Source: Candidatus Bathyarchaeota archaeon
GTDB taxonomy: Archaea > Thermoproteota > Bathyarchaeia > 40CM-2-53-6
Length of the DNA stretch: 64,000 nt
NCBI GenBank assembly: GCA_963833125.1
Contig: CAWHWX010000019.1
Coordinates: 64,001-128,000 of the forward strand
Direction of reading: 5' to 3'
The position numbers and the translations under genes were made by a program. This document shows, piece after piece, positions 5,931 through 45,163 of this stretch (position 1 is the stretch's first letter; each line of letters begins with the position of its first letter). The notes beneath the pieces are model-generated. The model made no database searches, had not been told where the DNA came from, and saw only the letters and a program-made list of their open reading frames with translations.

Positions 5931-6198
5931 GTCAGACGCCCTCCATTACTAATCCGAACGGTATGACATGAGGAGCAATTAAGCCCCACGTACTCTTTGT
6001 AGCCACATGCGCCTGTTCATCTACTTGATTTTCTTAAACCCGAAAATGCTCTGGCTATTCTAGTTAAGAAAGAGGCAACAAACGATAGAACCCAAAGGGC
6101 TAGTCCGAAGATCAGATCGGAAAGTGATTCGACACTGATCTTGATTCTCGGCGTCTCGTTGTTTTCCACTTAAGGCAACTCGTTGTATTCTACGCTTT

Positions 6199-6882
6199 TC
6201 AGTCAGGTATCACGACAGGTTTTCGGTGTTGCGCTTTGTAAGAGATTATCCTTGCCGAGGCGGAGAAGATGACTATCGTAATTGCTGTTATGACCAGGGG
6301 ATTTGGGATCCATCGCACAAGTCCTTCGTATGAAGCCCAGAATACCAATGCTCCTACTAGGAGCCCTACCCCAGTACCTACCATAGCTGTGGAGACTTTC
6401 ACGTCGAGCAAGTAGGCTATCACGATCGTGACCCACCAGCCAATGAGGAAAGTGGAGACAGCGATGACGCCGATTATTCCAAATGCACCCGCGTGGGTGA
6501 CTAGGTAGGTGGATATGGGACCGTACTGTTTCCTTATCCGCGCTAGATGGGGCGCTACACGCTCATATTGATCAATTGAATGTAAGATTCTTAGGCCGGC
6601 GTAAGTCGTGAAGGCGAGAATCGGTACGACGAGTCCGATTGATACGTAGCTTGGAAGTCCTAATCTTGTTCCGAGGGCGATGGCGAAACCAAAACCGCCT
6701 AACAGTGCTAGGATTATGAATTGGGAAGGCCATGCGCTCAGGAGACCTCCAACAATAGCCCCGATTAAGAAGGTGAGTCCAATCGTGAGTAACGGATAGG
6801 CGTTCAGGAATCTGCGCAACGAACTGATTTCAGTAAAAAACGTCGAGTAAAACTGTTGCCTAGCGCTTCTAGCTCTCTCCAT
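6199..6882 (-). CDS. Multi-pass membrane protein
   Basis: 227-aa ORF with 6-7 hydrophobic helices. Confidence 0.65.
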   Translation of the reverse strand: MERARSARQQFYSTFFTEISSLRRFLNAYPLLTIGLTFLIGAIVGGLLSAWPSQFIILALLGGFGFAIALGTRLGLPSYVSIGLVVPILAFTTYAGLRILHSIDQYERVAPHLARIRKQYGPISTYLVTHAGAFGIIGVIAVSTFLIGWWVTIVIAYLLDVKVSTAMVGTGVGLLVGALVFWASYEGLVRWIPNPLVITAITIVIFSASARIISYKAQHRKPVVIPD

Positions 6883-7164
6883 GACACAGAGGCCTCTTTC
6901 ATCTCGCTTATGGCGATTCTTGATTTAAGTCACTACTTACAATTCTTCTTGATTTTCTCCCTCCTTTCCAATTACAATTAACTACAAACGACACGGCGCT
7001 TTTTAATAGAAGAAGGAATTGACGGTACACTGATGATCTTCCCGCTTGGGTTAAAATTCGTTTGAGATTAACGTAACCACCTTATGTCGGTCATTGGTCT
7101 GATAGTGATTGGAGCAGGTGTAATGTCAGTTGACTCTTTCCTTGAATTCTAGGGAGCGAAACAA

Positions 7165-7587
7165 TTGAGCCACGTTGCTATGAATGATTTGGAGCTTCGA
7201 GAGTTCCTCTCTCAACCCTTGATCGCTGATATCGTAACCCTGAAAAAGGATGGTTCTCCGCAGATCACGCCAGTCGATTATTATTTCGACGGTACCTACC
7301 TCTATTTCTCAACCACTACTGACCGGGCGAAAGGTAGGAATGTAAAACGTGACAACAGAATCGCCGTCTCCATCCGAAACGAGAACGCTCACAAAGTGGT
7401 ACTCTTCGCAGGCACCGCCGACATTTTGGATGACAAGGACCATGCTCTGATTCGTAGTATCGTTGCTAGATACTGGCCGTCAGACAAGGTCGACGGAATT
7501 CTAAGCGGTCTGGAGGCCAACCGAATCATACTCCGAATGAAGCCAACCAAGACGATTAGCTGGGACTACAGCAAGTCAGGGAACTAG
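7165..7587 (+). CDS. PPOX-class (pyridoxamine oxidase-like) putative F420-dependent oxidoreductase
   Basis: TLKKDGSPQITPV..YFST..RAKGRNVKRDNRIAVSI..ISWDY. Confidence 0.85.
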   Translation: MSHVAMNDLELREFLSQPLIADIVTLKKDGSPQITPVDYYFDGTYLYFSTTTDRAKGRNVKRDNRIAVSIRNENAHKVVLFAGTADILDDKDHALIRSIVARYWPSDKVDGILSGLEANRIILRMKPTKTISWDYSKSGN

Positions 7588-7677
7588 CAGATCATGGTCT
7601 CCGACGGATAGCTCGCGAGCAAGCTTCTTCTTGAAAGGGACGGATTAACAGCAATCTTCCTGATTCACAATCTGTGA

Positions 7678-8112
7678 TTGGGTGAATTTGATTTGCCAAA
7701 GAAATTTAGTCTCAAGCGTGACATTCCGGAGGAGCATTCTTGGGTGCTGCAGCAGCTCTCAAGCAACGCGCTGACACTTGCGGGGTTTTCATTCGCCTCT
7801 TTAGTGTTCATGATTGGTCTTCTTGGAAACTCCTTTCCGGTGTCGGCGGAGGTCGGTCTCCTGCTTTGCACAATCACTTTCGCTACTGCGGGAGAAATGG
7901 CGAGGACCTCATATAGTTTAGAGGAGTATATCGTTTCGGAAAGCGTATATTTCATCTCACTGATCTTGCTCTTTTACAACTTCATAACGCTAACCTACGA
8001 GTCGCTTCACGGCTGGGGAGTCATTCCCATCGTCGCCGCAATTGTCGGTCTTGTCTATGTTATCTGGAGAACGTTCGCTAACTTCAGGCTACTGAGAAGA
8101 ACTGGACCTTGA
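7678..8112 (+). CDS. Hypothetical membrane protein (4 TM)
   Basis: Four hydrophobic segments. Confidence 0.55.
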   Translation: MGEFDLPKKFSLKRDIPEEHSWVLQQLSSNALTLAGFSFASLVFMIGLLGNSFPVSAEVGLLLCTITFATAGEMARTSYSLEEYIVSESVYFISLILLFYNFITLTYESLHGWGVIPIVAAIVGLVYVIWRTFANFRLLRRTGP

Positions 8113-8245
8113 TAAGAATTGCAAACGCTAATGTGATAGCCGGCAGAAGTCCAATCAACAGTTCACATAATGCTGCCATCGCGCAGCACCAGCTATACAC
8201 ACGCTTTCTTGACCGCGACCGACGACGAGGCGCCACGAACCGAAA

Positions 8246-8668
8246 TTAAGGGGAAGACGGTTGTTTGGATGGGAGTTGTGTGAATTGCCAGAGCCCGACT
8301 AAGTTGCCTTCTGTATCCCGGAAGTAGGCGGCGAAGCCGAAGTTTCCCACGGGCGTTCTTGGTTGGATGATTTTGCCTCCGTTCTGCTCGATAGTTGTCG
8401 CTGCTTCGTCAATGTTCTTCACGCTGATGTAGATGACGGGGGACTTGACTGTGTCATGTCGCTCCACCATGCCACCGTTTATGGCGCCTGGTTCCTTTGG
8501 GGTTCCTAGTACTCCGAGCTTATCAGCCTCAACGGTTCCGATTTGTGTGTAATGCATCGATGGAATCTCGTTCATCTTCCAGTCAAAGACTGTACCGTAG
8601 AATTTCCTTGCTCGCGCGAGGTTGTCGGCGGGTATTTCGAAGAATATTACCTTGTCCAAATTCCTCAC
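8246..8668 (-). CDS. VOC/glyoxalase family protein
   Basis: FFEIPADNLARARKFYGTVFDW...PGAINGGM...YFRDTEGNLVGLWQ. Confidence 0.9.
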   Translation of the reverse strand: MRNLDKVIFFEIPADNLARARKFYGTVFDWKMNEIPSMHYTQIGTVEADKLGVLGTPKEPGAINGGMVERHDTVKSPVIYISVKNIDEAATTIEQNGGKIIQPRTPVGNFGFAAYFRDTEGNLVGLWQFTQLPSKQPSSP

Positions 8669-8918
8669 CTCCGACCGCTCTACTCAGATTAGTACAAAAG
8701 TGTTAGTCGCTCCGAAGCCGGAGGGAAGAGGATAAGGCCTCCGATGGGCTCTCGGCAAAAGAACGTAAGGTAGGGCCATCGATTTCTCCATGGTCAGGGT
8801 TCAACTCTGTAATCGTTAGGCTCACCCAATTTCGCGCCTGCAGGAACACTCGAAGACTTGCCATGAACTGATCGAATCGAAGGCCCCTGTTGCGACGGCG
8901 GTTGTGGGTGGACGGGGT

Positions 8919-9383
8919 TTAGTGTTGTTTGGTTTCCTCCAGTCTGAAGTTGCGTATTGCGAGGCGAACTAGATCGCTTCTCCTTACAGAGTAGGTTTTC
9001 GCCATTTCATTCAACTTGATGATGAGGGAGTCGTTGATGGCAAGTTTGACCTTATGTTTCTTGCATGTCCCGAAAACTGATGGGTTGGGAGAACCGAACA
9101 GGTGCTCCAATGCTATGTTGACGATGCTGCTTAAGGGGAAACCGCCGTAAGACTGGGTCAGGTCCCGCAATTCACCGAGCTCATATTCGCAGAACCGCAA
9201 GGCAACTCTCGGTTTAGGCGGATTAGTCAACCCGAACCAAACACCCCCGGTGCCCTTCCTGAAGCGTTCTGACAATACCCTGACGTGTTCAGTCAGGATG
9301 GGGGAGTCCGAAGTGAATTCAATCCGCCTAACAACGAGCCCTACAAGGCTACCACGAACGCCCGATGGCACAAAAGTACCCAC
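8919..9383 (-). CDS. Putative tandem ribbon-helix-helix (CopG/Arc-like) DNA-binding protein; true start uncertain
   Basis: Two RHH-like units: RVALRF..ELRDL..LSSIVNIALE and KVKLAI..LNEMAK..RRSDLVRLAI. Confidence 0.55.
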   Translation of the reverse strand: MGTFVPSGVRGSLVGLVVRRIEFTSDSPILTEHVRVLSERFRKGTGGVWFGLTNPPKPRVALRFCEYELGELRDLTQSYGGFPLSSIVNIALEHLFGSPNPSVFGTCKKHKVKLAINDSLIIKLNEMAKTYSVRRSDLVRLAIRNFRLEETKQH

Positions 9384-9396
9384 CCCCAGGGGGTAT
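9372..9396 (-). terminator. GC hairpin plus U-tract downstream of tRNA-Trp
   Basis: Minus strand ATACCCCCTGGGGGTGGGTACTTTT. Confidence 0.45.
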
Positions 9397-9416
9397 CCGC
9401 ATCAAGCATGTGCATT

Positions 9417-9649
9417 TGGTGGGGCCGAAGGGACTCTCATGGTTCGGGCCTCGAACCATTTTGAACCCTCGACTTCCGCCATACCGTCATGTCTACGGGT
9501 TTCTTCGCTCCTGAAGTTCGTCATTCCGTTCAGGTCCGCAAACCCGTTAAGGTTTGGTCTTCTGGAGCCCTTGGCGGGTCCGTATCCCTGTCGTCATCCC
9601 TGGCTAGACACCGCCACCCCTTCGGAATTCTCGGAGTGACTACGGCCCC
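9417..9649 (-). tRNA. tRNA-Trp(CCA) with five introns (10/11, 28/29, 37/38, 45/46, 59/60); 3' CCA encoded
   Basis: Exons 9649-9640, 9608-9590, 9570-9562, 9500-9493, 9473-9460, 9433-9417 join to GGGGCCG TA GTCT AGCCAGGGA TGAC G ACGGG CTCCAGA CCCGT AGGTC GAGGG TTCAAAT CCCTT CGGCCCC A CCA, a canonical cloverleaf; BHB or relaxed BHB motif at each junction. Confidence 0.9.
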
Positions 9650-9769
9650 ACATGGGTTGGACAGGGTCGGCCCCAGCACCCCACCCTCAGAGAGTTGCTA
9701 TAACGATTATGGCTGGCTCCAGGTCAACGCATATAATACTACGAACAGACGGAATCCTATCGAAGGTTC

Positions 9770-10995
9770 TTGCTCAAGATAGGCTTAATCGGTAAGACAA
9801 ACGCTGGCAAAACCACATTCTTCAACGCCGCAACCCTACTAACCGCCGAAGTCTCCAACTACCCCCTTCACCACCAAGAAACCAAACGTAGGCCAGGCCA
9901 ACGCCAAAACAATCTGCGTGTGTAAGGAACTGGGCGTCAAGGATAATCCGCGCAACTCTACCTGCATCGACGGCTCCCGCTTCATACCAGTACAACTAAT
10001 CGACCTCCCCGGCCTCATCAAAGGATCATGGGAGGGGAAAGGCTTGGGAACCCAGTTCCTGAGCGTCGCTTCCCAAGCAGACGCTCTCATACACATCGCA
10101 GACGCCTCAGGCAGCGTAGATGCTGAGGGAAAAATCACCAAACCAGGCATGGGAAACCCAGTCGCAGACGTCTACGACATCGAGGAGGAGATTGTGCGAT
10201 GGTTCTGAAAATCGATCGAGAAGACACTCCAAAAAGTGAAAAAACATTCAAAAAAAGGTTCGTCAGTGGACCACTTGTTCGCGCAGGATCTGGCGGGCAT
10301 GAAAATCACCGCAGCTCACATTGCACAAGCCCTCAACGCTACAGACCTAACGGACAAGGAGTTAGGCGAATGGACGCGGCAGGACATTTGGAAATTCTCA
10401 AAGAACGTGCGCAAATCTCGAAGCCCACATTGATCGTGGCAAATAAGATGGATATCGCACTCGGCGAGAAGAACTATGAGAAGTTGATCAAGGAGTTTGG
10501 ACAGGCGTTCGTGATCGCCGCGTCAAGCGATGCCGAGCTTGCTCTGCGGAGGGCTGAACAGACTGGATACGTTGAGTACGTTCCCGGCGAGGAAATTTTC
10601 AAGGTAAGGATAGAAGCAAGCTTACTCCCGAGCAGCGAGACGCACTCACCTACGTTGAACAACGTGTTTTCTCAAAATGGATACGGACGGGTGTGCAGTT
10701 CGCTCTGAACACCTGCATCTTCAAACTGCTCGGCATGAATGTTGTCTATCCGGTGAGATGCAACAAGTTCTCGGATAGGAAGGGGAGTGTGCTTCCGGAC
10801 GCTTTCCTAGTTCCATACAACGCCTCCGTCTCGGACCTGGCTGGTCAGATCCATAGTGAGTTGGCTAGGACGATGATTTATGCCGTTGACGCACGAACAA
10901 AAATTCGCCTACCAACCGATTACAAACTGAAAGACCGAGACGTCGTCAATATCGTCTCGGCCTCAAAAGGAAAATCCCAAGCTAAGGCCCGATAA
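9770..10995 (+). CDS. ychF: YchF/OLA1 Obg-family ATPase/GTPase (several indels)
   Basis: TTG start then LKIGLIGKTNAGKTT, NYPFTT, IDLPGL..GKGLGTQFL, ANKMD, C-terminal TGS domain (LPDAFL..IHSEL). Confidence 0.9.
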
Positions 10996-11549
10996 CTTTC
11001 AGCAAATCCGCCTTGGTTATGATTCCCAGCACGTGCCCACGCCGGACCACGAGCACTGCAGGCTCATACTGAAGCAACGCAGAAACCATCGACACTGGCG
11101 CAACCTCATTCACCAGTGGAAACGCCTCATCCATTATCGTCTCTATCTCTCCTCGACACAAGGTCGGGTTTCGGAGATAACACGAGCTTCGGAACAATCG
11201 TTTTCTCCGTTAAGCTTCCTACAACTTGATTTCCGTTGAAAACAGGGAACTGGGAGAAGCCGGTTTCCCGCATCAAATGCACCCCCCTCGAGATCGGTTC
11301 ATCAGACTGTACACTCACGACTTTGCCGTGGCAAATCTCCTTCGCCTTCATCTCGTCTCTTCGTTCCAAAGTCTCGAGGGTATCAAAGATGGCTTTGGTT
11401 TTCAGGTATGATGGACTAATGTTCTTGCTCTCAATCTTCGAGATCATTGATTGGCTTATGCCGGCGAGGTTAGCCAGCTTTTTCTGGCTTATCGCTAGGA
11501 GCCGACGCCGTCTTCCAATCTCCTCTAATCCTGGTAGCATGGGATCCAA
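10982..11549 (-). CDS. XRE-HTH plus CBS-domain transcriptional regulator (frameshift near 11150)
   Basis: ISQKKLANLAGISQSMISKIE HTH; CBS pair FSQFPV..VGSLTE / GIITKADLLK. Confidence 0.9.
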
Positions 11550-11689
11550 ACCCGTCTACGAAGGGTATTCTCCGGGGAATTTTTTCTTATCGCAAGGTTA
11601 TATTATAGGAATATCGGAATTTCGCCAATAAGTTTCAGTGAAATTACTTGAGCAAACTCTCCAGCGGATCAACCAATGTAGCGGTGGCT

Positions 11690-12835
11690 TTGAGCCAAAA
11701 GCCTCGAACTTACATGTTCACCTCCGAAAGCGTCACCGAAGGTCACCCCGACAAGGTAGCAGATCAAATCTCAGATACGATCCTCGACGCCATCATGCAG
11801 AAGGATCCGAAATCACACATAGACATCGAAACTCTCATAATGAAAGGAACCATCATTGTTACGGGTCAAATCTCCACAGCAGCCTGGTCCAGGTTCGCCA
11901 AATAGTCCGCAACGTACTTCAGATATCGGCTTCGACAATGCGAAGGTAGGCTTGGATTGGGAAGCCTGCGGAGTCCTCGTCTCATCGAAGGAGTCGCCAG
12001 ATATCGCCATGGGGGTCGATAAGGAAGACGTCGGCGCCGGCGATCAGGGAATCGTATTCGGATACACGACGAATGAAACTCCTGAACTAATGCCCCTACC
12101 GATCGTCCTAGCCCACAAACTTGTCAGACGTCTCGCAGAGGTAAGAAAACAGGAATTCTACCCTATCTGCGGCCTGATGGAAAGTCGCAAGTGACCGTTG
12201 AATATTCGGACGGCAAACCCAACCGTTAACGCAGTAGTCATCGCAGCCCAACACAACGAAGACGTGCCAAGGGAGCAAATGAGGAGGGATATCATCGAGA
12301 AGGTAATCGAAAACGTCATCCCCAAGAACATGCTCAACAAGAACCCTAAATTCTTCATAAACGAAACCGGCCGCTTCACAGTCGGGGGCACGCTCGCTGA
12401 TTCCGGCTTGACTGGAAGAAAGATAATCGTTGACACGTACGGCGGGATTGGAAGCCATGGCGGCGGTTGTTTTTCCGGGAAGGATCCGACGAAGGTCGAT
12501 CGATCCGGGAGTTACATGGCGAGGTACATTGCGAAGAACGTGTCACGGCAAGCCTCGCCGACAAGTGCGACGTGCAGATCGCCTATGCCATAGGCGTTTC
12601 AAAGCCGGTTTCGGTCATGGTCTACACCTACGGGACTGGTAAGGTGTCGGATGAGAGAATTACGGATGCAGTGAAAGCGGTTTTCGACATGACCCCCAAG
12701 GGAATAATCGAACGCCTAAATCTCCGAAGGCCTATTTACAGAAAGACAGCAACCTACGGACACTTCGGACGGGACGATCCCGACTTCACATGGGAACGCA
12801 CTGACAAAGTAGACGAACTGAAGAAACACGCATAG
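11690..12835 (+). CDS. metK: S-adenosylmethionine synthetase, bacterial/eukaryotic type (several indels)
   Basis: [60 protein letters not shown]. Confidence 0.95.
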
Positions 12836-12972
12836 TCAGTGTTGAAATGGGAACACGGTATCAATCGTAGATCCTTGAATGTCGTCCAATCAAGTCCATT
12901 GCGAGGATTAGCACCAGTATATTGATTCGGCCCATTCGAGCGGTTTCGTGGCTTAACGCTGGGCGGTTGTCA

Positions 12973-14054
12973 ATGGATGTAGGAAAGTCACTACAGCGCG
13001 TAGTTACAACGGGTAGAATGCTTGCCCTAATTCTCGCCATCTTCTCGGCCTTCACTTACGTAATTACCCTCATCTTAGGCCCAGTACTTTACTTCTCTAC
13101 CTCCGATGGCCTGAAGGACGCCGGGCACGTGATTCACCAGCTCCCATTGGACATTTTCATGCTGTACATAGTTACCTACTGGCGGAATGAGCCACGGAAC
13201 CTTATTAGCGATAATTTGGATCATTTTCGTGGTTTGCATCGTGGCAGCATTTCTTAGCGCTGGAGGTTTTCTGAAATCAGTAAAGGATGCCCTCTCTAAG
13301 CCGATTTCAGTCGCGAAAACAAACTTCCTTTACCTCATGCCGCTAGTGGCCACGGGTCTGCGTTACACGACAATTCTCATTTCAGAATTCCAAACGACGC
13401 AGGGCATTCAGACAGGCAGCTTGAACTTTCCCGCTCAAACAAGCCCATACTTAATCCTCCTCAATCTTGCCTACACTACCGATAAACGGAAGTCGCCTTC
13501 CGGATAACAACGATCGGAATCCCGTTCGCCGCATTCATTCTCATCATTTACCGATCGGATGCACGGATGAAGGGGGTGAAGAAACGCATGGGTTTATTTC
13601 TGCTCGCCCTATTCAGTCCCGAACTCGCCAAATCTAAGCTGGGTTACAGGACCGTGGCTGCAAACGGTTTCATCCCTGGCATTAGTCCCATGAAGTGGGC
13701 GCTTATACTGGTAAGCTCGGCGGTGTTCGGGATAGCCGCTACATTGGTGGAGGTGGCTGGGAGATCGGGAAGGTTTCGACGGCGGCCTTGGCAGGTTTCG
13801 TATTTGCTATCATGTACGTCAGCTACGGAGCCTACGCAGATATACTCATGCACTGGTTCTTCAACTATTATTTCACGGTCCTCGATATGGCGAGCACCGA
13901 CGTACGGTGGCATGTTTACGGGATTCGACCAGTTGAAATCAGGAACATTTTCGCAGGCCGAGTCGGACTTATCGTCATTATCCTAATCTCCGCCCTAAGG
14001 CTAGGCGACTATCTCGCGGTACGGGCCACGGGAATTCCCACGAAGACCACCTAA
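12973..14054 (+). CDS. CPBP (Abi/CAAX) family intramembrane metalloprotease-like protein (several indels)
   Basis: Multiple TM fragments; SSAVFG..(H)YIGGGGWEIGK, YGAYADILMHWFFN. Confidence 0.6.
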
Positions 14055-14187
14055 CCCATTCAACAATCTTATACGGCAAAACAACCCAACTCAGGCTGGT
14101 GCAGGGGCCTGTATCACCGCCAAGTCCACTAAGACCTGAAACAAGCCTCTCTTGGGCCTCAATGCATTTTCTAGCAAGTGACAACAC

Positions 14188-16565
14188 TTGGCAACTTCGG
14201 AGAAAACTGAAACCGCGAAGAAATTCCTGCCCAGATCACCGAGAAGAGATGGGACCATAATGTTGAGAGGACAATTTTCGATCAATGGCAGCAGGAAGGG
14301 ACATTTAGGTTCAAGACCGGTAACGCAAAGAAGCCTCCATCATCGATACTCCGCCGCCAACCACCTCAGGAACTTGGCACATAGGTGCAGTGGCAGCCTA
14401 CTCACAAATCGATATGATTGCCCGATCCCAACGGATGCAGGGAAAATCCGTTCTATTCCCAATAGGGGTCGACCGAAACGGAATCAATGTCGAGATCTAC
14501 GTAGAGAAGCAATCAAAGGTGCGGATGCGGGACACACCGAGGCAACAATTCATCGACCTATGCTCACACACACTAGACGAGCTCGAGGCTCAAATGTTGA
14601 ACATGATGAAGCGGGTCGGGTTGGGTGGGGAGTCCGATGGCAGATATCATACCGATCACGAAGACTACCGGAAGCGGACGCAGGCCACATTTATCGAACT
14701 CTGGAAAAGAGGGCTCATCTACGAAACAACACGCCCCAACAACTACTGCCACGTGTGCTGAACAACAATCGCCGACGCAGAAGTAAAATACGAAGATCTT
14801 CCCTCGAACCTGACGTATCTCAACTTCAAAATTGAAGAGACAGGCGAAACGCTAGTGATCGCAACAACCCGGCCTGAACTTGTTTGCGCATGTCAGTTGG
14901 TAATCGTGAACCCCACGGACGAGAGATACACGAAGTTTCATGGAATGCCGCCACCAATTGTACCCATCTACGGCCGTAAAGTCGAAGTTAAACCCCATCC
15001 GAGCGCAAAAGCCGAGTTCAGGATACTGGGGTCGTCATGATTGTGCAGCTACGGAGACTACACGGACGTACTACTCTTCAGGGAGTTGAGTCTCGAAAGA
15101 GGTCTTAGCCGTAGGGCCGGATGGCAGACTTACCGCTGCCGCAGGAGCATACCAAGGTTCTACGATGTTAGAGGGACGCTCGCGAATCCTAGAAGACTTG
15201 CGCTCTCAGGGCCTACTCGTCAAAACTCAAAAGATTAGGCACCGCACACCAGTATGCTCACGCAGCAACACCCCAATTGAAATCATACCGATGAAGGAAT
15301 ACTACCTAAAGCAAATAGACTTCATCCCGAAGCTCAAACAACTCGCTAAGCAAATCACCTTTCACCCCGAGGCGGGTAGGCAGATATTGCTCGACTGGAT
15401 AAACTCGATAACGATTGACTGGCCGATCTCCGGACAAGCACGTATACGCCACTGAGATTCCCCGTTTGGTACTGCAAGAGCTAGGGGACTACATTCCTCC
15501 CCTCCCCGGGCGAATATTACAGGCCATGGAGAAATCGACCCACCATCTGCAATATGTTCCAAATGCGGTCACGCTGAATTTGACGGGGAGACTGCGCACA
15601 TTCGACACCTGGATGGACTCAAGCATTTCCTGCGCTTTACATTTCCAAATACCAACTAGACCCCAAGTTCTTCAAGCGAGCATACCCTGCAAGCATTACG
15701 GCCTCAGGGCAAGGACATAGTGAGAACTTGGCTCCACTACTCCGTCCTGAGGTGCTACCAATTAACAGGCCGAGCGCCATTTACAGATGCGTGGATAAAC
15801 GGGCTTGGGATGGATGAACAAGGTCAGGCGATGCACAAGAGCAAGGGGAATGTTGTAGAGCCTGAGCCGGTTCTTGAAAAGTTCGGAGCAGACTCATTCA
15901 GGTTCTGGAACGCTTCCGAAGCCACCCTTGGGTTCCGATTTCCGTTGCTCCGAAATGAGAATCGCCGCAGCCCACAAGATTCATGACGAAACTCTGGAAT
16001 CTCTCCCGTTTCATCTCATCCTTCCCACAAGTCAAGACTGCCAAACTCCAGCCCAGCGACAAATGGATTCTCTCCGAACTCACCCTACTAATACAAAAAT
16101 CCATGAAGGGCTATCGCGATTACAATTTCTTTGTTCCCTCAACAGCAATTAGAGACTTCGTCTGGGAGACATTTGCCTCACATTACCTAGAGATGGTGAA
16201 ACCTCGCGCCTACGGCGAGGGCTTCACAAAGAGCTCAGCAGAAAGCTGCATGGTACACGCTCCACACGGTCTTGAAGAGCATACTCCTTCTACTTGCACC
16301 CATCGCCCCGTTCATGCCAGAGCACGTCTGGAAGCAATTGTACTCGAAAAGAAGCATCCACGCCCAGCAATTCCCAAAGCCGGCGTGGTCGAAAGCATCG
16401 AAACGCTATACCCAGAAGATGTTAGACTTCAACCGAGAAGTCTGGAAGATTAAGAAAGAGAAGAGCTTGGCTCTACGTGACCCAGTCGAGGTAAAGGTCC
16501 CGAAGGCTCTAGCGCCCTTCACAGACGACTTGGTTAGGATGCACTCATTGATCACGAAGCCATAA
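14188..16565 (+). CDS. valS: Valyl-tRNA synthetase (many indels and one in-frame TGA)
   Basis: DTPPP..SGTWHIGA (HIGH-like), IATTRPEL, MCSYGD, FDTWMDSS, MHKSKGNVV (KMSKS), anticodon-binding LAPIAPFMPEHVW. Confidence 0.95.
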
Positions 16566-16617
16566 TCGAAGTGCAATAGTTTAATATCGCAAGACTCGCT
16601 CTAGCGCCTTGATTTCG

Positions 16618-16911
16618 ATGAAGGTATCCGAACTCAAGCCTGGAATGCGGCGTGTGGACACGATAACCGCCAAGATTCAAGAAATCTCCCCAGCAAGGGA
16701 AGTAACGACAAGAAGGGGCGAACAATCCAGGGTTGCTACAGCAGTTGTCGCGGATGATTCTGGCACCGTCAAACTCAACCTCTGGAATGAACAAATCGAC
16801 CAGGTAAAGGCAAACGATACAGTGACGATTGAGAATGGATATGTGGATAGTTTCCGTGGCGAGACCCAGCTGAACGTAGGCCGATACGGTAAGCTCACTG
16901 TGCAGCCATAA
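16618..16911 (+). CDS. ssb: Single-stranded DNA-binding protein (single OB fold, crenarchaeal type)
   Basis: KVSELKPG..VADDSGTVKLNLW..IENGYVDSFRGETQLNVGRYGKL. Confidence 0.9.
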   Translation: MKVSELKPGMRRVDTITAKIQEISPAREVTTRRGEQSRVATAVVADDSGTVKLNLWNEQIDQVKANDTVTIENGYVDSFRGETQLNVGRYGKLTVQP

Positions 16912-16952
16912 CTGAAATCTTCGTTCCCCTTTCGCCGGTTAAGGCCCAAAAT

Positions 16953-17837
16953 TTGAGCACAGACGATCGCTTCGAAGAAATAAAACATCTACTTGACTCA
17001 ACGATAAACGAATTTCAAACACTCTTCGAATCGGCGGGTGGGTTCGAAGACTCAAGAGTCGGAAATGGTTGGGCTCCGGATAAGTTAACGCCTGAGGTCT
17101 ACTGCCTCGAGCCAAAACCCCTACCAGAACTGCTCAAGACGGCTGAGGACCGTAAGGCATCCTTGTTCAAAAACCGAGTCCTGTCTCTGCTCAAACCGAA
17201 GGACCAAGACGTTCACGCCGCGGAACCACCTAAACTAAAACTAATTCCATTCTGGAGAATTCATGGATACCATGAATGCTTCTACTTTAGGGGAAACACG
17301 TACAAAATCGATCTTCCCCCGGACGTCGTCGCTGTGGAAGTTGAGGGAAAGATCAGGGATCTCGTTGAACTGGGCTCTGCTGAAGGACAGGGAATATCGA
17401 ATTTAGCAAAACGGTTACTGGGGAGAAGGGAGGGGTCAGAATCAAAATCGTTTCGACTAAACGAAATCACGGAGCTAGCGCACATGTACGACGAGAATTC
17501 CCTCTTTCTCAATGCGCATGGAAGGGAAGACCTCGAGGCCGAGGCGTTCTTCGACCGTCCCCTACCTCTCAAGAAGACAACCTACGAAGAACTACTCCTA
17601 CAATACCCTGCCGTAGAATTCGAGACAAATTCGATGACCAAAGAGGAATTGGTCGCGAAGCTCCATGCTATGGTCGTTAAGCCACCCGCGGCATTCTCAA
17701 AGATACTTAGTAACCGATTCCAAGTGACTGGGTCCGCCCAATACCTAATGCCGGTCTACTCTTTCATCTTTGAATGGCACGGACAAAAAAGAGCGCTATC
17801 CGTGCATGGATACACCGGCGGAATTTTTCAACCCTGA
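16953..17837 (+). CDS. Hypothetical protein
   Basis: Uninterrupted 294-aa ORF; no recognisable motif. Confidence 0.6.
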   Translation: MSTDDRFEEIKHLLDSTINEFQTLFESAGGFEDSRVGNGWAPDKLTPEVYCLEPKPLPELLKTAEDRKASLFKNRVLSLLKPKDQDVHAAEPPKLKLIPFWRIHGYHECFYFRGNTYKIDLPPDVVAVEVEGKIRDLVELGSAEGQGISNLAKRLLGRREGSESKSFRLNEITELAHMYDENSLFLNAHGREDLEAEAFFDRPLPLKKTTYEELLLQYPAVEFETNSMTKEELVAKLHAMVVKPPAAFSKILSNRFQVTGSAQYLMPVYSFIFEWHGQKRALSVHGYTGGIFQP

Positions 17838-19283
17838 GAGAACTTGCGGTACCTCGGCCGCTTGAGAAGTCTCCTTAACCGGAAAATCGTAACTTTCCTT
17901 CCATAACGGGACACCGACCAACGAACAACAAACAGGACCCGCAACGACACCTACAATAACACTGATGAACAAATACGGCTGAGCTACCACCTCGTAAGTG
18001 GCCTTGCCCGAGTTCCCTAACGTGTCTCCTGCGCTAACATTCAACGTCCACGTCCCGCCACGAATCAAATCAAAGAGTGTGCTTGAGTACGAAGCCCGCC
18101 ATTCGCCAATGGAGGGGTCGTAGGTTGCCATCAACGGTGTGATCGATGATCCGGTGGAGACGACAAGGTTCACCGAGCCCGACGGTCAAAGGTGTTCCGT
18201 CCGGATATGTCACCTTTGATACTGTGCTGACTCGGGCCGAACGGAATTTGGATTCGTGTTCCGTTCAATTGACTGCTGATGATCAGGCTGGCATTCGTAA
18301 CTGTGAAGTAATTAGAGGCCGTGTCAACTGCCGCACCCTTGTTCCCGAATCCATCGTCAAAGGCCATTGCGGGCATGTCGAAGCGATATTTCCCGCTGGG
18401 CGTCGCAGTGGCGAAGAGTTTGACCCCAGCCGCCCAGATGCCGTTTGCGGGATCAACAAGGGTAAGATTGGCGGGGCCAAGTGTGGTCTGGTCTCGCATC
18501 AGGATGACGGGTTGTGAGGTAGGGTTTGAGGATTGACTACGGGGCTGCCGTCTGGGTATTGAATTGCCATCGTTACATTGGCAACTTGTGTCCTCTGGTA
18601 GGTTGAGTTTGGTTGGTTTACGATTCTGGTCGATAGTACTGCCTGCGTCACAGTAAATTTCGCCGTAGAGGAAAAGTCCTGTTGCGGATTATCGAATGTC
18701 CCCGTGCCATAGATCACGGCTGTAAATACATCTGTAATCGCGTCTGGCGGAATTCTCCAGGTATGATTGAAATCTCCCTCGGTCGTCGAAGCGAGTGTGG
18801 AGTGTACGATGTTGCCCGCCGGATCTTGAATAGTCAAACTGATGCTTGTGCCCGGAAAAATGCCCCCGCCTATGATGTTCACAGACTGAGTTCTTTGATA
18901 TACGGGCGCCGCTGAACCCCAGACACCGAAATGTGCGATCGCCTGCGCCAGTTATCGGTGGTTGATGACGTAGATAGGCTGATGAGGTACGTACCCAATT
19001 CTGCATTGGCTGAGAGAGGATAGGTTGTATCAGGAGGGATGAGTCCTCCAGAAACGGGCGTGAAGCTAACTCCGGTGTATCGTGTCTTGTTGGTGGCAGG
19101 TCCCCTTACCCAGAGGTAGTATTGTTGACTGGGCGTTAGCCCGGATCCGGCTAGGGTTACTTGCTTGTCTCTGATGGTGTACAAGTAATTGTCTGTGCTT
19201 AGCGAAGGTGATGCTTTGGCTGGAAGCGGGAGGGCTAGCAGGATCATTGCCAGGGCAAGAAGTATGATTTTGGTTTGCTTCAT
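17828..19283 (-). CDS. Secreted beta-rich (Ig-like) membrane-anchored protein, fragmented by indels
   Basis: Signal peptide MKQTKIILLALAMILLALPLPAKA; Thr/Gly-rich beta segments over four ORF pieces; C-terminal TM plus basic tail. Confidence 0.65.
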
Positions 19284-19330
19284 TCGGTTTTTCCCTCCGC
19301 TTTCGCACTTCTTACTAGTATGGTGTCATT

Positions 19331-19457
19331 TGGCGCCCAGGGAGAGGGATTCGAACCCCCGAGGCCCATAAGGGCCACGGGCTTGCATTGAAGTTGACAC
19401 TCAAGCCCGCGCCTTTGGACCATTTTCCATGATGTTAATCCACTCGGCCATACCGGC
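19331..19457 (-). tRNA. tRNA-Ser, probably (UGA), with two introns (21/22 at 19435-19415; 37/38 at about 19399-19384)
   Basis: GCC start, long variable arm GGCCC-TTAT-GGGCC, GGTTCGAATCC, G73-CCA; D-loop BHB with central helix GGAT/GTCC; acceptor and anticodon arms carry apparent indels, so the anticodon call is less sure. Confidence 0.75.
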
Positions 19458-19495
19458 TAAAGTATCCCTGAAGCCGATTCCTATTTAAGTTCCCG

Positions 19496-19969
19496 TTGGC
19501 TTGCGGGCGCGAAAATTCAGATAGGTCTTCGCTTTGGCAGCCCCCACGTTATGAGTTTCTTCCACATACAACAGACGCATACATTCAATCTGTTGGTCCC
19601 ACTTTTGAAGAGGCGCTTGAAAATGCGGGGCTAGCGCTGTTCGATACGATGTGTAACTTAGATTCAATTTCGAATAAAGAGGTCGACGATGTTGAGGCTG
19701 ACGGCGGTGACGAAGTAGAGCTTCTCTATGATTGGCTCGAAACGCTGCTGCTGAAGTTCGAGCTCGACAGTAAGGTCTACTCGAAATTTCATGTCACTCT
19801 CTTGAAGACAGCTCCCAACATCCTACAACTCAGAGCCAAGGCCTACGGCGAGACCTACAATCGTCAGCTTCATGGCTCTAAGGTTGAGGTAAAGGCGGTG
19901 ACCTTTCACAGAATGGAAGTCGTGAGAGAAGGAAATTTAGTCATTCTGAGGTTCATACTTGACCTCTAG
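19496..19969 (+). CDS. Archease (cofactor of the RtcB tRNA-splicing ligase)
   Basis: YEFLPHTTDAYI..TFEEALENAGLAL..LLYDWLETLL..EVKAVTFH..FILDL; start uncertain. Confidence 0.9.
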   Translation: MACGRENSDRSSLWQPPRYEFLPHTTDAYIQSVGPTFEEALENAGLALFDTMCNLDSISNKEVDDVEADGGDEVELLYDWLETLLLKFELDSKVYSKFHVTLLKTAPNILQLRAKAYGETYNRQLHGSKVEVKAVTFHRMEVVREGNLVILRFILDL

Positions 19970-19987
19970 CCGCCTTGAAGCTTGGTA

Positions 19988-20995
19988 TTAGGAAAAGTTT
20001 CCAGGGTCAACATCCCTCAGCACTGAAAGGTAAGTCGAAACATAATCACCGAAAGTTATAGCGCTAAGTAACCACCCCAATCTATTGTCGCCTGCCACTT
20101 CGAAACTAATGGCCCGCGCAAATCCGAGCTGCGAAAGCAACTCAACCAACCTTTTCTCCGTTCTTTCATCCCCTCCTGTTTGGTTTTGGTTACAAAGAAT
20201 AATTGGTTGAGTTCGAGACAGCTCCGTGAGCGTCTTCAACCCTTCAATGTCATTATGGTATGCTTCTGGGAGGGCGAGGTAGAATGCTGGAACTTTGCTG
20301 TTCTCGTTAAGCTCATTTTTGAATCGGCGAAGCACACTAATGTTGTCCTCGCTCCCTAACAGGACGGGGAGATGATCCTTGAGTGCGACAGCCATCTGCT
20401 TCGCCTGATTCTTGGTCAGCGGGACTGATGGCTTTACCGAAGTGATTATTTGCCGGACCGACCGTGAAGCCGTATCAAGCAGTTTCTGAGTATCCTTGAG
20501 AACGCCTCCTTGACCCAAGACATAGGCCAGTGCCGCTACGAGTTCAGGTAACGCCAATCTTGGAGGCATGCCTCCATCGACCTTCACGTAAGGGATTCCT
20601 TGGGATTGCGCAGTGGCGAGAAGTTTCCCACCGGAGCAAACTACAGCAACGTTTGCTCCGTTACGCTTTGCTTGCTCGAACAATCCAAGTGTTTCGGCGG
20701 TATCTCCGGAGTAACTAATCGCAATGAATAGGGTATTCTTTCCCACATAACGCGGCATTCCAACAGATCTACAAACCGCCACAGGAATACCGACTTCACT
20801 CCGCAAGTAGTCTGTGAGGATATCCCCAACAATTCCGGAACCTCCCACGCCCCCAAAGACGATGTTCATAGGGCTTTGAAAGCGAATTCGGCAGGTGGAA
20901 TCGGCATTTGATGGTGGAACCAGACGATCTGGAGTCCTCTCAATCGCCGCCAGCATATCCGATTGGTCCACCCCTTCGAATTTCAGTCGGCTCAT
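19988..20995 (-). CDS. Bifunctional phosphoglucose/phosphomannose isomerase
   Basis: GVGGSGIVGD, ISYSGDTAET, SGGKL, PPRLA, RFKNELNENSK, PEAYHNDIEG. Confidence 0.9.
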   Translation of the reverse strand: MSRLKFEGVDQSDMLAAIERTPDRLVPPSNADSTCRIRFQSPMNIVFGGVGGSGIVGDILTDYLRSEVGIPVAVCRSVGMPRYVGKNTLFIAISYSGDTAETLGLFEQAKRNGANVAVVCSGGKLLATAQSQGIPYVKVDGGMPPRLALPELVAALAYVLGQGGVLKDTQKLLDTASRSVRQIITSVKPSVPLTKNQAKQMAVALKDHLPVLLGSEDNISVLRRFKNELNENSKVPAFYLALPEAYHNDIEGLKTLTELSRTQPIILCNQNQTGGDERTEKRLVELLSQLGFARAISFEVAGDNRLGWLLSAITFGDYVSTYLSVLRDVDPGNFS

Positions 20996-21041
20996 CTAGG
21001 CTCATTTTCTCTCCCCTTGAGACCAACCTTCCCCAATAGAT

Positions 21042-21526
21042 TCATTCTTTCTTTGTAGTCTTTGGGGTGTCTCGTTCCTCGGCGTCCAATTCTTTGAATC
21101 GTGTTTCCACGAATTCAGCCACTCGTTCCTGACCATATTTCTTCAATTCGCTTTGTTTCTTCAATTGTTGTTCGATTGTGCGAAGCAGTTCAGTCATGTT
21201 GATTGGCTTGACCAAATAGCCGTTGGCGCCCTTGTTTACCGCGTCGATTGCATTCTGTAGTGCGGGGTATCCTGTGAGGATGATCTTGACCATCTCTGGG
21301 GTTGTTTGTTTCATGGAGGTTAGGACTTTCGTGCCTTCCATGTCTGGGAGGCGAATGTCTACGAGCGCAAGGTTATAGAAGTTGGTTTGAGATTTCGCAC
21401 GGCATCCTTGCCGTTGCTCGCGGTATCGACCACGTATCCTTCAGTCTTCAGAGCTTCAGCGACAACTTTGCGAATACCTTCATCGTCGTCTACGACGAGT
21501 ATTCTGCCTTCCGTGCCTTCACTCAT
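21042..21526 (-). CDS. Response regulator receiver protein (frameshift near 21395)
   Basis: RILVVDDDE, LVDIRLPDMEG, IILTG, YLVKP. Confidence 0.9.
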
Positions 21527-45046: not shown

Positions 45047-45163
45047 GCCGGGGTTCCCTAGCCTGGTAAGGGGCAGATTCATGACGCCTAGGCCTGGAAT
45101 CATGGAACCGTAAGCCTGTGGTCCTTTGGGGCCTCGAGGGTTCAAATCCCTCTCCCGGCGCCA
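45047..45163 (+). tRNA. tRNA-Ser(GGA) with two introns (29/30 at 45077-45091; 37/38 at 45100-45112)
   Basis: GCCGGGG/TCCCGGC acceptor, CAGGC/GCCTG anticodon stem after splicing, loop CT-GGA-AA, long variable arm, GGTTCAAATCC, G73-CCA; BHB helix GGGC/GCCT for intron 1. Confidence 0.88.

What the first reader, a model, noticed from the sequence alone, without database searches (positions are those of the whole stretch)
9417..9649. Hidden tRNA-Trp(CCA) gene split into six exons by five BHB introns
Seen: the minus strand of this apparently non-coding stretch splices by hand into a 77-nt cloverleaf. Introns are 10/11 (31 nt, 9639-9609), 28/29 (19 nt, 9589-9571), 37/38 (61 nt, 9561-9501), 45/46 (19 nt, 9492-9474) and 59/60 (26 nt, 9459-9434), so 156 of 233 nt are intron and two exons are only 9 and 8 nt. 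Introns 1 and 5 have strict hBHBh' motifs (helix CCGT/GCGG with bulges AG^T and TG^T; helix TTCA/TGAG with bulges AA^A and AG^T). Intron 4 has helix CCGT/GCGG plus inner CATG/TATG. Introns 2 and 3 are relaxed, each with one A.C mismatch. Cutting after the second bulge nucleotide gives canonical GTCT/TGAC, AGGTC and TTCAAAT elements. Known: EndA cleaves BHB motifs, and the multi-intron tRNAs I know of (Thermoproteales such as Thermofilum) carry up to three introns. Inference: five introns, including one at 10/11 in the D-stem, would be an extreme case that standard tRNA finders would probably miss, making tRNA-Trp look absent from such genomes.
Basis: partly seen in the sequence, partly recalled or inferred. 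Interest (0 to 1): 0.92.

Follow-up and report, generated by a model that had tools for sequence, protein, structure and literature searches.

The report
Five-intron tRNA-Trp gene in Bathyarchaeia
A stretch that looks non-coding is a real tryptophan tRNA gene cut into six pieces by five short introns; it is conserved across an order of uncultured soil and sediment archaea, and two common tRNA search methods fail to find it.

Summary
Joining the six proposed exons (window 9649-9417, minus strand) gives a 77-nt product that ARAGORN calls tRNA-Trp(CCA). ARAGORN and the Rfam tRNA model find nothing in the unspliced DNA. The main evidence is comparative. I recovered 87 distinct orthologous genes, nearly all from Candidatus Bathyarchaeia MAGs. 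Their exons are almost invariant and they carry 2-5 introns. Each of the four non-canonical introns is missing in some relatives, with the exons joined exactly at the predicted junction. The 61-nt intron at 37/38 is the known tRNA-Trp guide-RNA type: a K-turn plus antisense elements against positions 39 and 34. The genome encodes a two-subunit EndA, RtcB and fibrillarin. No other tRNA-Trp was found. In a partial census, this genome's tRNA genes average about 2.2 introns, and Trp has the most. Five is no longer unprecedented, because a 2026 preprint reports up to five in Asgard archaea. Splicing itself is not shown by RNA data.

The parts
9640..9649 (-). Exon 1, tRNA positions 1-10 (5' acceptor strand, U8, A9, G10)
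   Evidence: Invariant in 27 of 27 aligned five-intron orthologs.
9609..9639 (-). Intron 1 (31 nt) at 10/11, strict hBHBh'
   Evidence: central helix 4/4, h' 6 bp, h 2 bp. Central helix 4/4 in 35 of 35 orthologs that have this intron. Absent, with exons joined exactly, in L022, L026, L029, L030, L065, L075. All 6 h' pairs show changes on both sides.
9590..9608 (-). Exon 2 (19 nt), positions 11-28 (rest of D arm, G26, A27, C28)
9571..9589 (-). Intron 2 (19 nt) at 28/29, relaxed BHB (central helix 3/4, A.C)
   Evidence: present in 66 of 87 distinct orthologs; central helix 4/4 in 29 and 3/4 in 37. Absent with exact read-through in L044, L087, L056, L057, L104, L118 and others. One h' pair occurs as GC 16, CG 5, UA 3, AU 1, UG 1.
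9562..9570 (-). Exon 3 (9 nt), positions 29-37, including anticodon CCA (34-36)
   Evidence: Invariant.
9501..9561 (-). Intron 3 (61 nt) at the canonical 37/38 site; relaxed BHB (3/4, C34.A); carries a guide-RNA-like module
   Evidence: 87 of 87 orthologs have it, but the search pattern required it; the C.A mismatch is kept in all 87..
9540..9547 (-). Antisense element 1 inside intron 3 (8 nt), complementary to the last two intron nucleotides plus tRNA 38-43. The fifth nucleotide upstream of the D'-like box pairs with C39.
   Evidence: 8/8 matches in 47 and 7/8 in 35 of 86 orthologs, at fixed spacing; 95.3% of cells paired; the duplex forms in the MFE fold.
9535..9538 (-). D'-like box (C-N-G-A) of the internal K-turn
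   Evidence: matched in 86 of 87. Its position 2 covaries with position 5 of the C'-like box.
9518..9524 (-). C'-like box (R-U-G-A-N-G-A) of the internal K-turn
   Evidence: The CC/GG stem between the two boxes is present in 82 of 86.
9507..9516 (-). Antisense element 2 inside intron 3 (10 nt), complementary to tRNA 31-37 plus the first three intron nucleotides (one A.A mismatch here)
   Evidence: 89.3% of cells paired; always 11 nt from the end of the C'-like box to the end of GGAGC (86 of 86).
9493..9500 (-). Exon 4 (8 nt), positions 38-45
9474..9492 (-). Intron 4 (19 nt) at 45/46, HBh' type
   Evidence: central helix 4/4, h' 4 bp, h 0; central helix 4/4 in 43 of 43 orthologs with this intron. 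Absent with exact read-through in L042, L101, L072, L051.
9460..9473 (-). Exon 5 (14 nt), positions 46-59 (variable loop, 5' T stem, most of the T loop)
9434..9459 (-). Intron 5 (26 nt) at 59/60 in the T loop, strict hBHBh'
   Evidence: central helix 4/4, h' 7 bp, h 5 bp; h' of 3 bp or more in 43 of 43. Absent with exact read-through in L053, L076. 5 of 7 h' pairs show changes on both sides.
9417..9433 (-). Exon 6 (17 nt), positions 60-76, including discriminator A73 and a genome-encoded CCA
   Evidence: 17 of 18 Rfam tRNA hits in this genome are followed by CCA.

Best explanation
Window 9649-9417 (minus strand) is the tRNA-Trp(CCA) gene of a Candidatus Bathyarchaeia genome, and the only one found in it. 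Five short introns at 10/11, 28/29, 37/38, 45/46 and 59/60 cut it into six collinear exons. Shown: the exon and intron layout, the BHB motifs, conservation across relatives, natural intron-less alleles, and the presence of the enzymes. Inferred: the gene is transcribed as one precursor with a leader of roughly 25 nt. Each intron folds with its flanking exon into a bulge-helix-bulge. A heterotetramer-type (alpha-beta) EndA with broad specificity cuts in both 3-nt bulges, and RtcB joins the exons and circularises the introns. The motifs are partly mutually exclusive with the cloverleaf and with each other. The central helix of intron 4 uses C40-U43, which the anticodon stem, the outer helix of intron 3, also needs. 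A27 and C28 join the anticodon stem only after intron 2 is removed. Splicing is therefore probably ordered, with the strict or local motifs (introns 1, 5 and 4) cut first and intron 3 last. Intron 3 is the lineage's version of the known tRNA-Trp intron guide RNA. It has an internal C'/D'-type K-turn flanked by two antisense elements, one placing C39 and the other probably C34 for fibrillarin-dependent 2'-O-methylation.
For: ARAGORN calls the script-joined exons tRNA-Trp(cca) over the full 77 nt. Orthologous loci were found in 18 genus relatives of 22 searched and in other families of the order. Their matches end at the predicted CCA end and their exon blocks are near-invariant. A pattern scan of named genomes gave 89 stretches, almost all titled Bathyarchaeia or Bathyarchaeota. 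Of 119 pattern hits, 105 genes were full length and 87 were distinct, with 5 introns in 34, 4 in 28, 3 in 20 and 2 in 5. Among the 87 distinct orthologs, intron 1 is present in 35, intron 2 in 66, intron 4 in 43 and intron 5 in 43-45; the others read straight through at the predicted junction. BHB motifs sit at all five junctions and are kept in orthologs, against a chance rate of 0.083% for the class met by introns 1, 4 and 5. For the BHB and hairpin structure, 87.9% of cells pair against 35-47% when the partners are slid; 15 pairs change on both sides; 0 of 500 shuffles reach the covariation score. No contiguous or second tRNA-Trp was found. ARAGORN and Rfam list none, and exon-sized matches in the right order occur only here and on C21, which is a roughly 95%-identical collinear strain copy. 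Enzymes: two PF01974 paralogs. One is closest to catalytic chains of what I recall, without checking, to be crenarchaeal heterotetrameric EndA structures (3p1z_B at 7.8e-40). The other is divergent, and reading its sequence I see no catalytic His. RtcB and fibrillarin are present. The MFE fold of the precursor forms the intron 1 and intron 5 hairpins and the antisense-1 duplex, z = -2.5. One metatranscriptome contig from a close relative joins exon 1 to exon 2 exactly while keeping introns 2-4.
Against: There is no direct RNA evidence of the mature, fully spliced tRNA. The four RNA-library runs laid were contigs only; they covered unspliced parts of the locus and showed no listed joints. The one contig lacking intron 1 could come from an allele that lacks intron 1, not from a splicing intermediate. 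Introns 2 and 3 have only relaxed motifs (3/4 central helix) in this genome, a class reached by 5.7% of arbitrary boundaries. The D-stem pair 13:22 is a U.U mismatch. I could not run tRNAscan-SE, SPLITS or an Infernal score of the spliced product; ARAGORN gives a call but no score. For the guide function, no terminal box C was found, the D-like GA lies at the exact N+5 offset for C34 in only 48 of 86 orthologs, and Rfam has no match in the intron.
Confidence: 0.9

Rival explanations
1. The gene is real, but one or more of the weakly supported 'introns' (2 or 3, relaxed BHB) is not removed by EndA as drawn. The boundaries could differ by a few nucleotides, or that part could be processed by another route.
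For: The central helices of introns 2 and 3 pair at only 3 of 4 positions here, and the relaxed class arises at 5.7% of arbitrary boundaries. Intron 3 has no h' helix.
Against: Read-through alleles fix the intron 2 junction exactly. In 29 of 66 orthologs intron 2 has a 4/4 central helix. Intron 3 sits at the canonical 37/38 site with the anticodon stem as outer helix. Any other junction breaks the anticodon stem-loop that ARAGORN accepts.
Confidence: 0.05
2. The locus is a decaying tRNA pseudogene that has accumulated insertions, and tryptophan decoding relies on another, undetected gene.
For: No RNA evidence of the mature product. The genome is 88% complete, so another gene could lie in the missing part.
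Against: Exons are invariant or nearly so across an order while the introns diverge. The inserts keep BHB geometry with compensatory changes. The same layout is found in 34 distinct orthologs. Relatives with 96-100% completeness estimates (e.g. G013, G014, G016) carry this locus. No other candidate was found.
Confidence: 0.03
3. The inserts are assembly or binning artefacts of this MAG.
For: The bin has about 7% contamination and holds a second strain copy of the region.
Against: The same five inserts, at the same sites, occur in independently assembled genomes, including contigs of 0.6-2.4 Mb (L070, L078, L079, L080, L104), and in metatranscriptome contigs from three studies.
Confidence: 0.01

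Closest known systems
Multi-intron tRNA genes of Thermoproteales (e.g. Pyrobaculum calidifontis), as summarised in the tRNAscan-SE 2.0 paper (PMC8450103, passages read)
   Same: Non-canonical BHB introns at many tRNA positions. Several introns per gene, some so close that one must be removed before the next motif can form. A broad-specificity EndA.
   Different: That paper gives a ceiling of three introns per gene and 1.54 per gene in the richest genome. Here there are five in one gene, in a different class (Bathyarchaeia), with exons of only 8 and 9 nt.
[quoted passage not shown]
   Same: Most tRNA genes are interrupted, averaging about 2.2 intervening sequences per gene with up to five in one gene. 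Many were missed by standard annotation and were found by comparison with compact relatives, the approach I used here.
   Different: A different phylum. The preprint does not mention Bathyarchaeia (0 occurrences). The case here is one specific gene whose four- and five-intron forms are kept across a whole order.
Box C/D guide RNA nested in the tRNA-Trp intron (Haloferax volcanii: PMC7714728 and PMC4090602, passages read; the primary paper PMC92551 is not held) and the 65-nt tRNA-Trp intron of Sulfolobus solfataricus (PMC3326292, passages read)
   Same: An intron of about 60-65 nt at 37/38 of tRNA-Trp, with two complementarities covering positions 34 and 39. As in Sulfolobus, consensus terminal C and D boxes are not evident.
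   Different: Here an internal C'/D'-type K-turn is clear and shows covariation. The element placing position 39 lies upstream of D'. The target at 39 is C, not U. The host gene carries four further introns.
Split and permuted tRNA genes (Nanoarchaeum, Caldivirga, Thermofilum; recalled, and titles and abstracts listed)
   Same: tRNA genes disrupted at BHB-forming sites and hidden from standard finders.
   Different: Here all six exons are collinear on one strand within 233 nt, so no trans-splicing or permutation is needed.

Membership tests
Archaeal BHB-intron-containing tRNA gene | The spliced product folds into a canonical cloverleaf with the expected anticodon | tested here: met
   ARAGORN calls tRNA-Trp(cca), positions 1-77, with a 7/7 acceptor stem, 5-bp anticodon and T stems, and T loop TTCAAAT. 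No covariance score could be computed.
Archaeal BHB-intron-containing tRNA gene | Each intron boundary lies in a 3-nt bulge, and the two bulges are separated by a 4-bp helix (hBHBh', HBh' or hBH) | tested here: met
   introns 1 and 5 are strict; intron 4 is HBh'; introns 2 and 3 have 3 of 4 central pairs (relaxed). The motifs are kept in orthologs.
Archaeal BHB-intron-containing tRNA gene | A splicing endonuclease able to cut non-canonical motifs, and an RNA ligase, are encoded | tested here: met
   Two EndA paralogs, one catalytic-like and one lacking His; RtcB. Subunit assembly and specificity are inferred, not tested.
Archaeal BHB-intron-containing tRNA gene | The introns are removed in vivo (junction reads, circular introns) | tested here: inconclusive
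   only contigs of RNA libraries were available. No joints were listed. One contig joins exon 1 to exon 2 but could come from an allele that lacks intron 1.
Rfam tRNA (RF00005), on unspliced DNA | A match at or above the gathering score | tested here: not met
   No tRNA hit in 9200-9900 even at E up to 10, and none at this locus genome-wide. This is expected for a gene that is two-thirds intron.
Intron-encoded box C/D guide of tRNA-Trp | Located in the 37/38 intron of tRNA-Trp, with antisense elements to the regions of positions 34 and 39 | tested here: met
Intron-encoded box C/D guide of tRNA-Trp | Internal C'/D' motif forming a K-turn | tested here: met
   CNGA, then a CC-loop-GG stem, then RTGANGA, in 86 of 87 orthologs. 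The D' position 2 / C' position 5 pair occurs as GC 15, UA 4, AU 1, UG 1, other 6 among 27 genes.
Intron-encoded box C/D guide of tRNA-Trp | Terminal consensus box C (RUGAUGA) and box D (CUGA) | tested here: not met
   No box C lies 5' of antisense element 1. The 3' end is an invariant GARGAA after a spacer of 0-5 nt. The S. solfataricus intron has the same shortfall (PMC3326292).
Intron-encoded box C/D guide of tRNA-Trp | The target lies opposite the fifth nucleotide upstream of the D or D' box | tested here: inconclusive
   Met for position 39 via D' (82 of 86 with at least 7 of 8 matches at fixed spacing). For position 34 a GA lies at the required offset in only 48 of 86.
Split or permuted tRNA | Exons on separate loci or in permuted order | tested here: not met
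   All exons are collinear within 233 nt.

The most novel reading that the evidence does not exclude
This order of Bathyarchaeia is a third, independent hot-spot of tRNA intron proliferation, beside Thermoproteales and two Asgard classes. Its tRNA genes average at least 2.2 introns. A four- to five-intron tRNA-Trp has been kept since the order's ancestor. At least some introns spread by copying into sites that offer the same exon half-motif: introns 1 and 4 both follow CCGUAG and are 16/17 identical in one lineage. A consequence would be that tRNA-Trp, and probably several other tRNAs, go un-annotated in Bathyarchaeia genomes as a matter of course.
Probability: 0.55. Interest if true: 0.72.

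Novelty: new member of a known kind. Interest (0 to 1): 0.62.

Why it matters
The gene ties the highest intron count reported for any tRNA gene, and it does so in a lineage where I found no such report. It shows that a tRNA can stay functional under purifying selection when two-thirds of its gene is intron and two of its exons are only 8-9 nt long. Practically, ARAGORN and the Rfam model miss it, so Bathyarchaeia genomes will appear to lack tRNA-Trp and other tRNAs. That distorts tRNA-based quality measures for MAGs and inferences about decoding. Scientifically, the many natural alleles with and without each intron, across 87 distinct orthologs, form a ready-made series for studying intron gain and loss, the order of splicing when BHB motifs compete with each other and with the cloverleaf, and the substrate range of two-subunit EndA. 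The near-identical introns 1 and 4 in one lineage bear on the open question of how such introns arrive.

Tried and rejected
Rfam scan of 9200-9900 at E up to 10: only two chance microRNA-family matches (E 6 and 9), no tRNA and no C/D family.

ARAGORN with intron mode on the whole genome: 35 calls, many of them mis-parsed multi-intron genes (for example 'Phe aaa' and 'Val aac' with odd introns). I did not use them as identities.

Anticodon-arm scan for YUCCAR loops: 4,481 hits, 31 of them without an intron. This is too unspecific to prove that no second tRNA-Trp exists. I rely instead on the ARAGORN, Rfam and exon-match searches.

RNA evidence: 20 RNA runs hold part of the stretch, all with a share of 0.38 or less. 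The four laid (X1, X2, X5, X6; three studies) were contigs that cover unspliced parts (9453-9665 at most). No joints were listed, and parts without cover say nothing. The X2 loose end looks like a sequencing adapter (recalled). The X5 loose ends are divergent intron sequence from relatives.

I asked whether the upstream copy of the first seven tRNA nucleotides could mark a sixth intron. By hand, no BHB fits, so I dropped the idea.

I looked for a terminal C/D pair in intron 3, including across the circularisation junction and using the ATGACGA motif in exon 2. No consistent spacing emerged, so nothing is claimed.

The spliced-alignment census produced 91 clustered hits with score 66 or above. 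59 gave an ARAGORN-valid product. I then dropped 25 as artefacts (terminal exon under 12 nt, an exon under 3 nt, or an intron over 100 nt; mostly re-hits of the same gene with a displaced tail) and merged identical products, leaving 28. Junctions in that census are approximate, so its BHB classes (18 canonical, 19 relaxed, 25 none) are lower bounds. Four G041 tRNAs that ARAGORN mis-parsed and two with no call were not used as queries.

Literature searches: 'Bathyarchae' plus 'tRNA intron' gave 3 papers, none on this. Terms for four or five introns gave nothing on archaeal tRNAs beyond a red-alga paper. A 2019-onward search found the Asgard papers. PMC92551 (Clouet d'Orval 2001) is not held.

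tRNAscan-SE, SPLITS and an Infernal score of the spliced product could not be run with these tools.
Full report
WHAT IS THERE. ARAGORN finds no tRNA anywhere in the unspliced 64-kb window. An Rfam scan of 9200-9900 at E up to 10 returns no tRNA match. A genome-wide search with the Rfam tRNA model gives 29 matches, 18 above the cut-off, none at this locus and none typed as Trp. When a script joins the six proposed exons by coordinate (10 + 19 + 9 + 8 + 14 + 17 = 77 nt), ARAGORN calls the product tRNA-Trp(cca) over its full length. It has a 7/7 acceptor stem, 5-bp anticodon and T stems, T loop TTCAAAT, discriminator A73 and an encoded CCA. CCA is genome-encoded after 17 of 18 tRNA hits in this genome.

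WHY THIS IS NOT A HAND-PICKED ARTEFACT. Five freely chosen deletions give a lot of freedom, so I looked for evidence that does not depend on the cloverleaf. A DNA search in 40 relatives found the locus in 18 of 22 genomes of the same genus and in other families of the order. Most matches end at query position 284-285, which is the predicted CCA end. In an alignment of 30 loci the six exon blocks are almost invariant while the intervening blocks vary in sequence and length. A pattern built from exon 3, the end of intron 3 and exon 4 found 89 stretches in named genomes. Nearly all are titled Candidatus Bathyarchaeia or Bathyarchaeota MAGs; three are titled as bacterial MAGs and two as marine group I thaumarchaeote single-cell genomes. 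From 119 pattern hits I extracted 105 full-length genes, 87 of them distinct, and aligned the window's 77-mer to each with a spliced dynamic programme that knows nothing about BHB motifs. The orthologs carry 5 introns (34 genes), 4 (28), 3 (20) or 2 (5). Intron 1 (10/11) is present in 35 of 87, intron 2 (28/29) in 66, intron 4 (45/46) in 43 and intron 5 (59/60) in 43-45. In the rest, the sequence reads straight through at exactly the predicted junction. Examples: L022, L026, L029 and L030 for intron 1; L044, L087 and L104 for intron 2; L042 and L101 for intron 4; L053 and L076 for intron 5. Intron 3 is present in all 87, but the search pattern required it. Relatives also have introns at other sites (D loop 15-20, 26/27, 43/44, about 50). 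All 18 genus relatives' loci carry intron 1.

THE SPLICING MOTIFS. With the junctions fixed by these read-through alleles, I scored the bulge-helix-bulge geometry. Intron 1 has central helix CCGT/GCGG 4/4, bulges AG^T and TG^T, an inner helix of 6 bp and an outer helix of 2 bp. Intron 5 has TTCA/TGAG 4/4, bulges AA^A and AG^T, an inner helix of 7 bp, and the T stem as outer helix. Intron 4 has CCGT/GCGG 4/4 with an inner 4-bp helix and no outer helix. Introns 2 and 3 pair at 3 of 4 central positions (A.C and C.A). Across orthologs the central helix is 4/4 in 35 of 35 copies of intron 1, 43 of 43 of intron 4, 31 of 43 of intron 5 (11 more at 3/4) and 29 of 66 of intron 2 (37 at 3/4). It is 3/4 in 87 of 87 copies of intron 3. 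In a control over 45,725 arbitrary boundary pairs in the surrounding 833 nt, 0.083% reach '4/4 plus an inner helix of 4 bp or more', 0.017% are strict, and 5.7% reach the relaxed class. Introns 1, 4 and 5 are thus strongly non-random on the motif alone; introns 2 and 3 rest on the comparative evidence. On a MAFFT alignment of 27 distinct genes with the window's configuration, the BHB and hairpin structure pairs 87.9% of cells against 35-47% when partners are slid by 1-3 columns. 15 pairs change on both sides, and none of 500 shuffles reaches the observed covariation score. The compensatory changes lie in the inner helices of introns 1, 2 and 5. These sequences are related, so the shuffle figure is not a probability. 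The minimum-free-energy fold of the 233-nt precursor forms the intron 1 and intron 5 hairpins without any constraint (z = -2.5; 3 of 200 shuffles fold as well).

INTRON 3 IS THE KNOWN tRNA-Trp GUIDE INTRON. The 61-nt intron is far more conserved than the other four. In 86 of 87 orthologs it contains, in this order: a C-N-G-A box, a CC-loop-GG stem (82 of 86), an R-U-G-A-N-G-A box, and exactly 11 nt ending in GGAGC. That is the layout of an internal D'/C' K-turn. The variable second base of the first box and the fifth base of the second box co-vary: GC 19, TA 22, AT 6, CG 3 and TG 1, against GA 30 and 5 others, of 86. The 8 nt that precede the nucleotide next to the D'-like box complement the last two intron nucleotides plus tRNA 38-43, with 8/8 matches in 47 and 7/8 in 35 of 86. 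This puts the fifth nucleotide upstream of D' opposite C39. The element after the C'-like box complements tRNA 31-37 plus the first intron nucleotides; the two duplexes together pair 92% of cells, against 26-51% when slid. A D-like GA stands at the offset that would select C34 in only 48 of 86, and I found no terminal box C. This matches what is in print. Archaeal tRNA-Trp introns have a median length of 65 nt and nest a box C/D RNA that selects C34 and U39 (PMC4090602 and PMC7714728, passages read). The 65-nt S. solfataricus intron is a stable circle without consensus C and D boxes but with two complementarities to 34 and 39 (PMC3326292, passages read). Fibrillarin is encoded. The guide function here is inferred, not shown.

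THE MACHINERY. The genome has two tRNA-intron endonuclease paralogs, both with the N- and C-terminal Pfam domains. The 185-aa protein is closest to chains 3p1z_B, 3ajv_B, 2cv8_A and 2zyz_B (E 8e-40 to 4e-28). I recall these as crenarchaeal enzymes; the table itself gives no organism. Reading the 190-aa paralog's sequence, I see the Tyr and Lys but not the His of the catalytic triad, and its PDB matches are weak. This fits the two-subunit (alpha-beta)2 type, which is known to cut non-canonical motifs (PMC5829648, abstract only). RtcB is present (574 bits).

IS IT THE ONLY tRNA-Trp? ARAGORN (with and without introns) and Rfam report none. Matching the 77-mer against the genome gives exon-sized hits in the right order only at this locus and on contig C21. 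C21 is collinear with C19:70096-87612 at 92-95% identity over 17.4 kb, so it is a second strain in a bin with about 7% contamination, not a paralog. The genome is 88% complete, so absence elsewhere is not proven.

RNA EVIDENCE. Twenty public RNA runs hold part of the stretch. The four I laid, from three studies, are stored as contigs. They cover unspliced parts of the locus, show no listed joints, and cannot show mature tRNA. One contig (X6, 154 nt, depth 4.2, 3 other letters over 126 nt) continues beyond 9609 into sequence that, reverse-complemented, is a relative's 5' leader followed by the end of exon 1. Exon 1 is therefore joined to exon 2 at the predicted junction while introns 2, 3 and part of 4 are retained. 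This is either an early splicing intermediate or an allele without intron 1. No such allele is seen among the 18 genus relatives, but I cannot decide between the two.

CONTEXT IN THE GENOME. To see whether the Trp gene stands alone, I took 32 compact tRNAs from a Bathyarchaeia genome whose Trp gene has only two introns (G041). I aligned them to the whole genome with a vectorised spliced alignment; shuffled queries reached at most 52-56. After ARAGORN validation, removal of artefacts and merging of identical products, 28 tRNAs remain. They have 0 introns (1), 1 (6), 2 (11), 3 (6) or 4 (4), a mean of 2.2. The four-intron genes are Gly-GCC, Met-CAT, Pro-GGG and Glu-UUC. The census is partial and its junctions are approximate. 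It still shows that multi-intron tRNAs are the rule here and that Trp, with five, is the extreme.

NOVELTY. The tRNAscan-SE 2.0 paper (2021) states that archaeal tRNA genes contain up to three introns. Since then, Asgard genomes with 92-95% intron-containing tRNA genes have been described (PMC11291895). A preprint of October 2026 reports 2.2 intervening sequences per gene and 'up to five in a single gene' in two Asgard classes, 30% of them missed by tRNAscan-SE. Five introns is therefore a tie, not a record. I found nothing on Bathyarchaeia tRNA introns (supplements not seen). I file this as a new member of a known kind. It is notable for being conserved across an order, for its 8-9-nt exons, and for combining the guide-RNA intron with four others.

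VERDICT. Splicing, its order and the methylation-guide role remain inferred.

Noticed in passing
window 9668-9674 (minus strand), 18 nt upstream of tRNA position 1: A copy of the first seven tRNA nucleotides (GGGGCCG) sits in the 5' leader. It is conserved in the genus and in some other families (only 5 nt upstream in L020). It does not fit a BHB as a sixth intron. It might be a leader element that pairs with the 3' acceptor strand.
   Followed up: partly
G000 contig C21:1611-19443 versus C19:70096-87612 (window about 6096-23612): A 17.4-kb collinear duplicate at 92-95% identity includes a second copy of the Trp gene. It is most likely a second strain in the bin. Several other tRNA genes are likewise duplicated across contigs (C12/C17, C18/C29/C6, C2/C3/C16).
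   Followed up: partly
L024:240-447 and L020:1483-1686: Introns 1 and 4, which both follow the exon motif CCGTAG and end in GGCGG, are 16/17 identical in L024 and 75% identical in L020. Over 27 genes the mean is 0.54, against 0.43-0.50 for other intron pairs. This suggests an intron was copied between two sites that offer the same half-motif.
   Followed up: partly
window about 19331-19471 (minus) and 45047-45163 (plus); genome-wide list in the notes: Two more intron-containing tRNA genes lie in the window (a Ser-type gene and a gene of unclear type, each with two inserts). ARAGORN misses them without intron mode and mistypes them as Val with it. Genome-wide, 27 of 28 tRNAs recovered carry introns, and four have four introns.
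   Followed up: partly
window 9770-10995 (plus strand): The neighbouring YchF/Obg-like GTPase (YGR210-like G4 domain in ORF 10199-10708) seems to be spread over several short overlapping ORFs. This suggests frameshifts or assembly indels in this contig.
   Followed up: no
L043, L046, L111 (contigs titled Methylomirabilota, Acidoferrum, Acidiferrales MAGs): These contigs in bacterial bins carry the archaeal multi-intron tRNA-Trp gene. They are probably mis-binned Bathyarchaeia contigs.
   Followed up: no
L052, L098 (marine group I thaumarchaeote single-cell genomes): Their tRNA-Trp has two introns (28/29 and 37/38). The 37/38 intron has the same kind of D'/C' boxes and the same GGAGC...GAAGAA end, so this intron type predates the split between Bathyarchaeia and Nitrososphaeria.
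   Followed up: no
all 87 orthologs, intron 3 3' end: The C34.A mismatch in the central BHB helix and the terminal GARGAA are invariant, although the spacer before them varies by 0-5 nt. The reason for keeping a mismatch opposite the wobble base is unexplained.
   Followed up: partly
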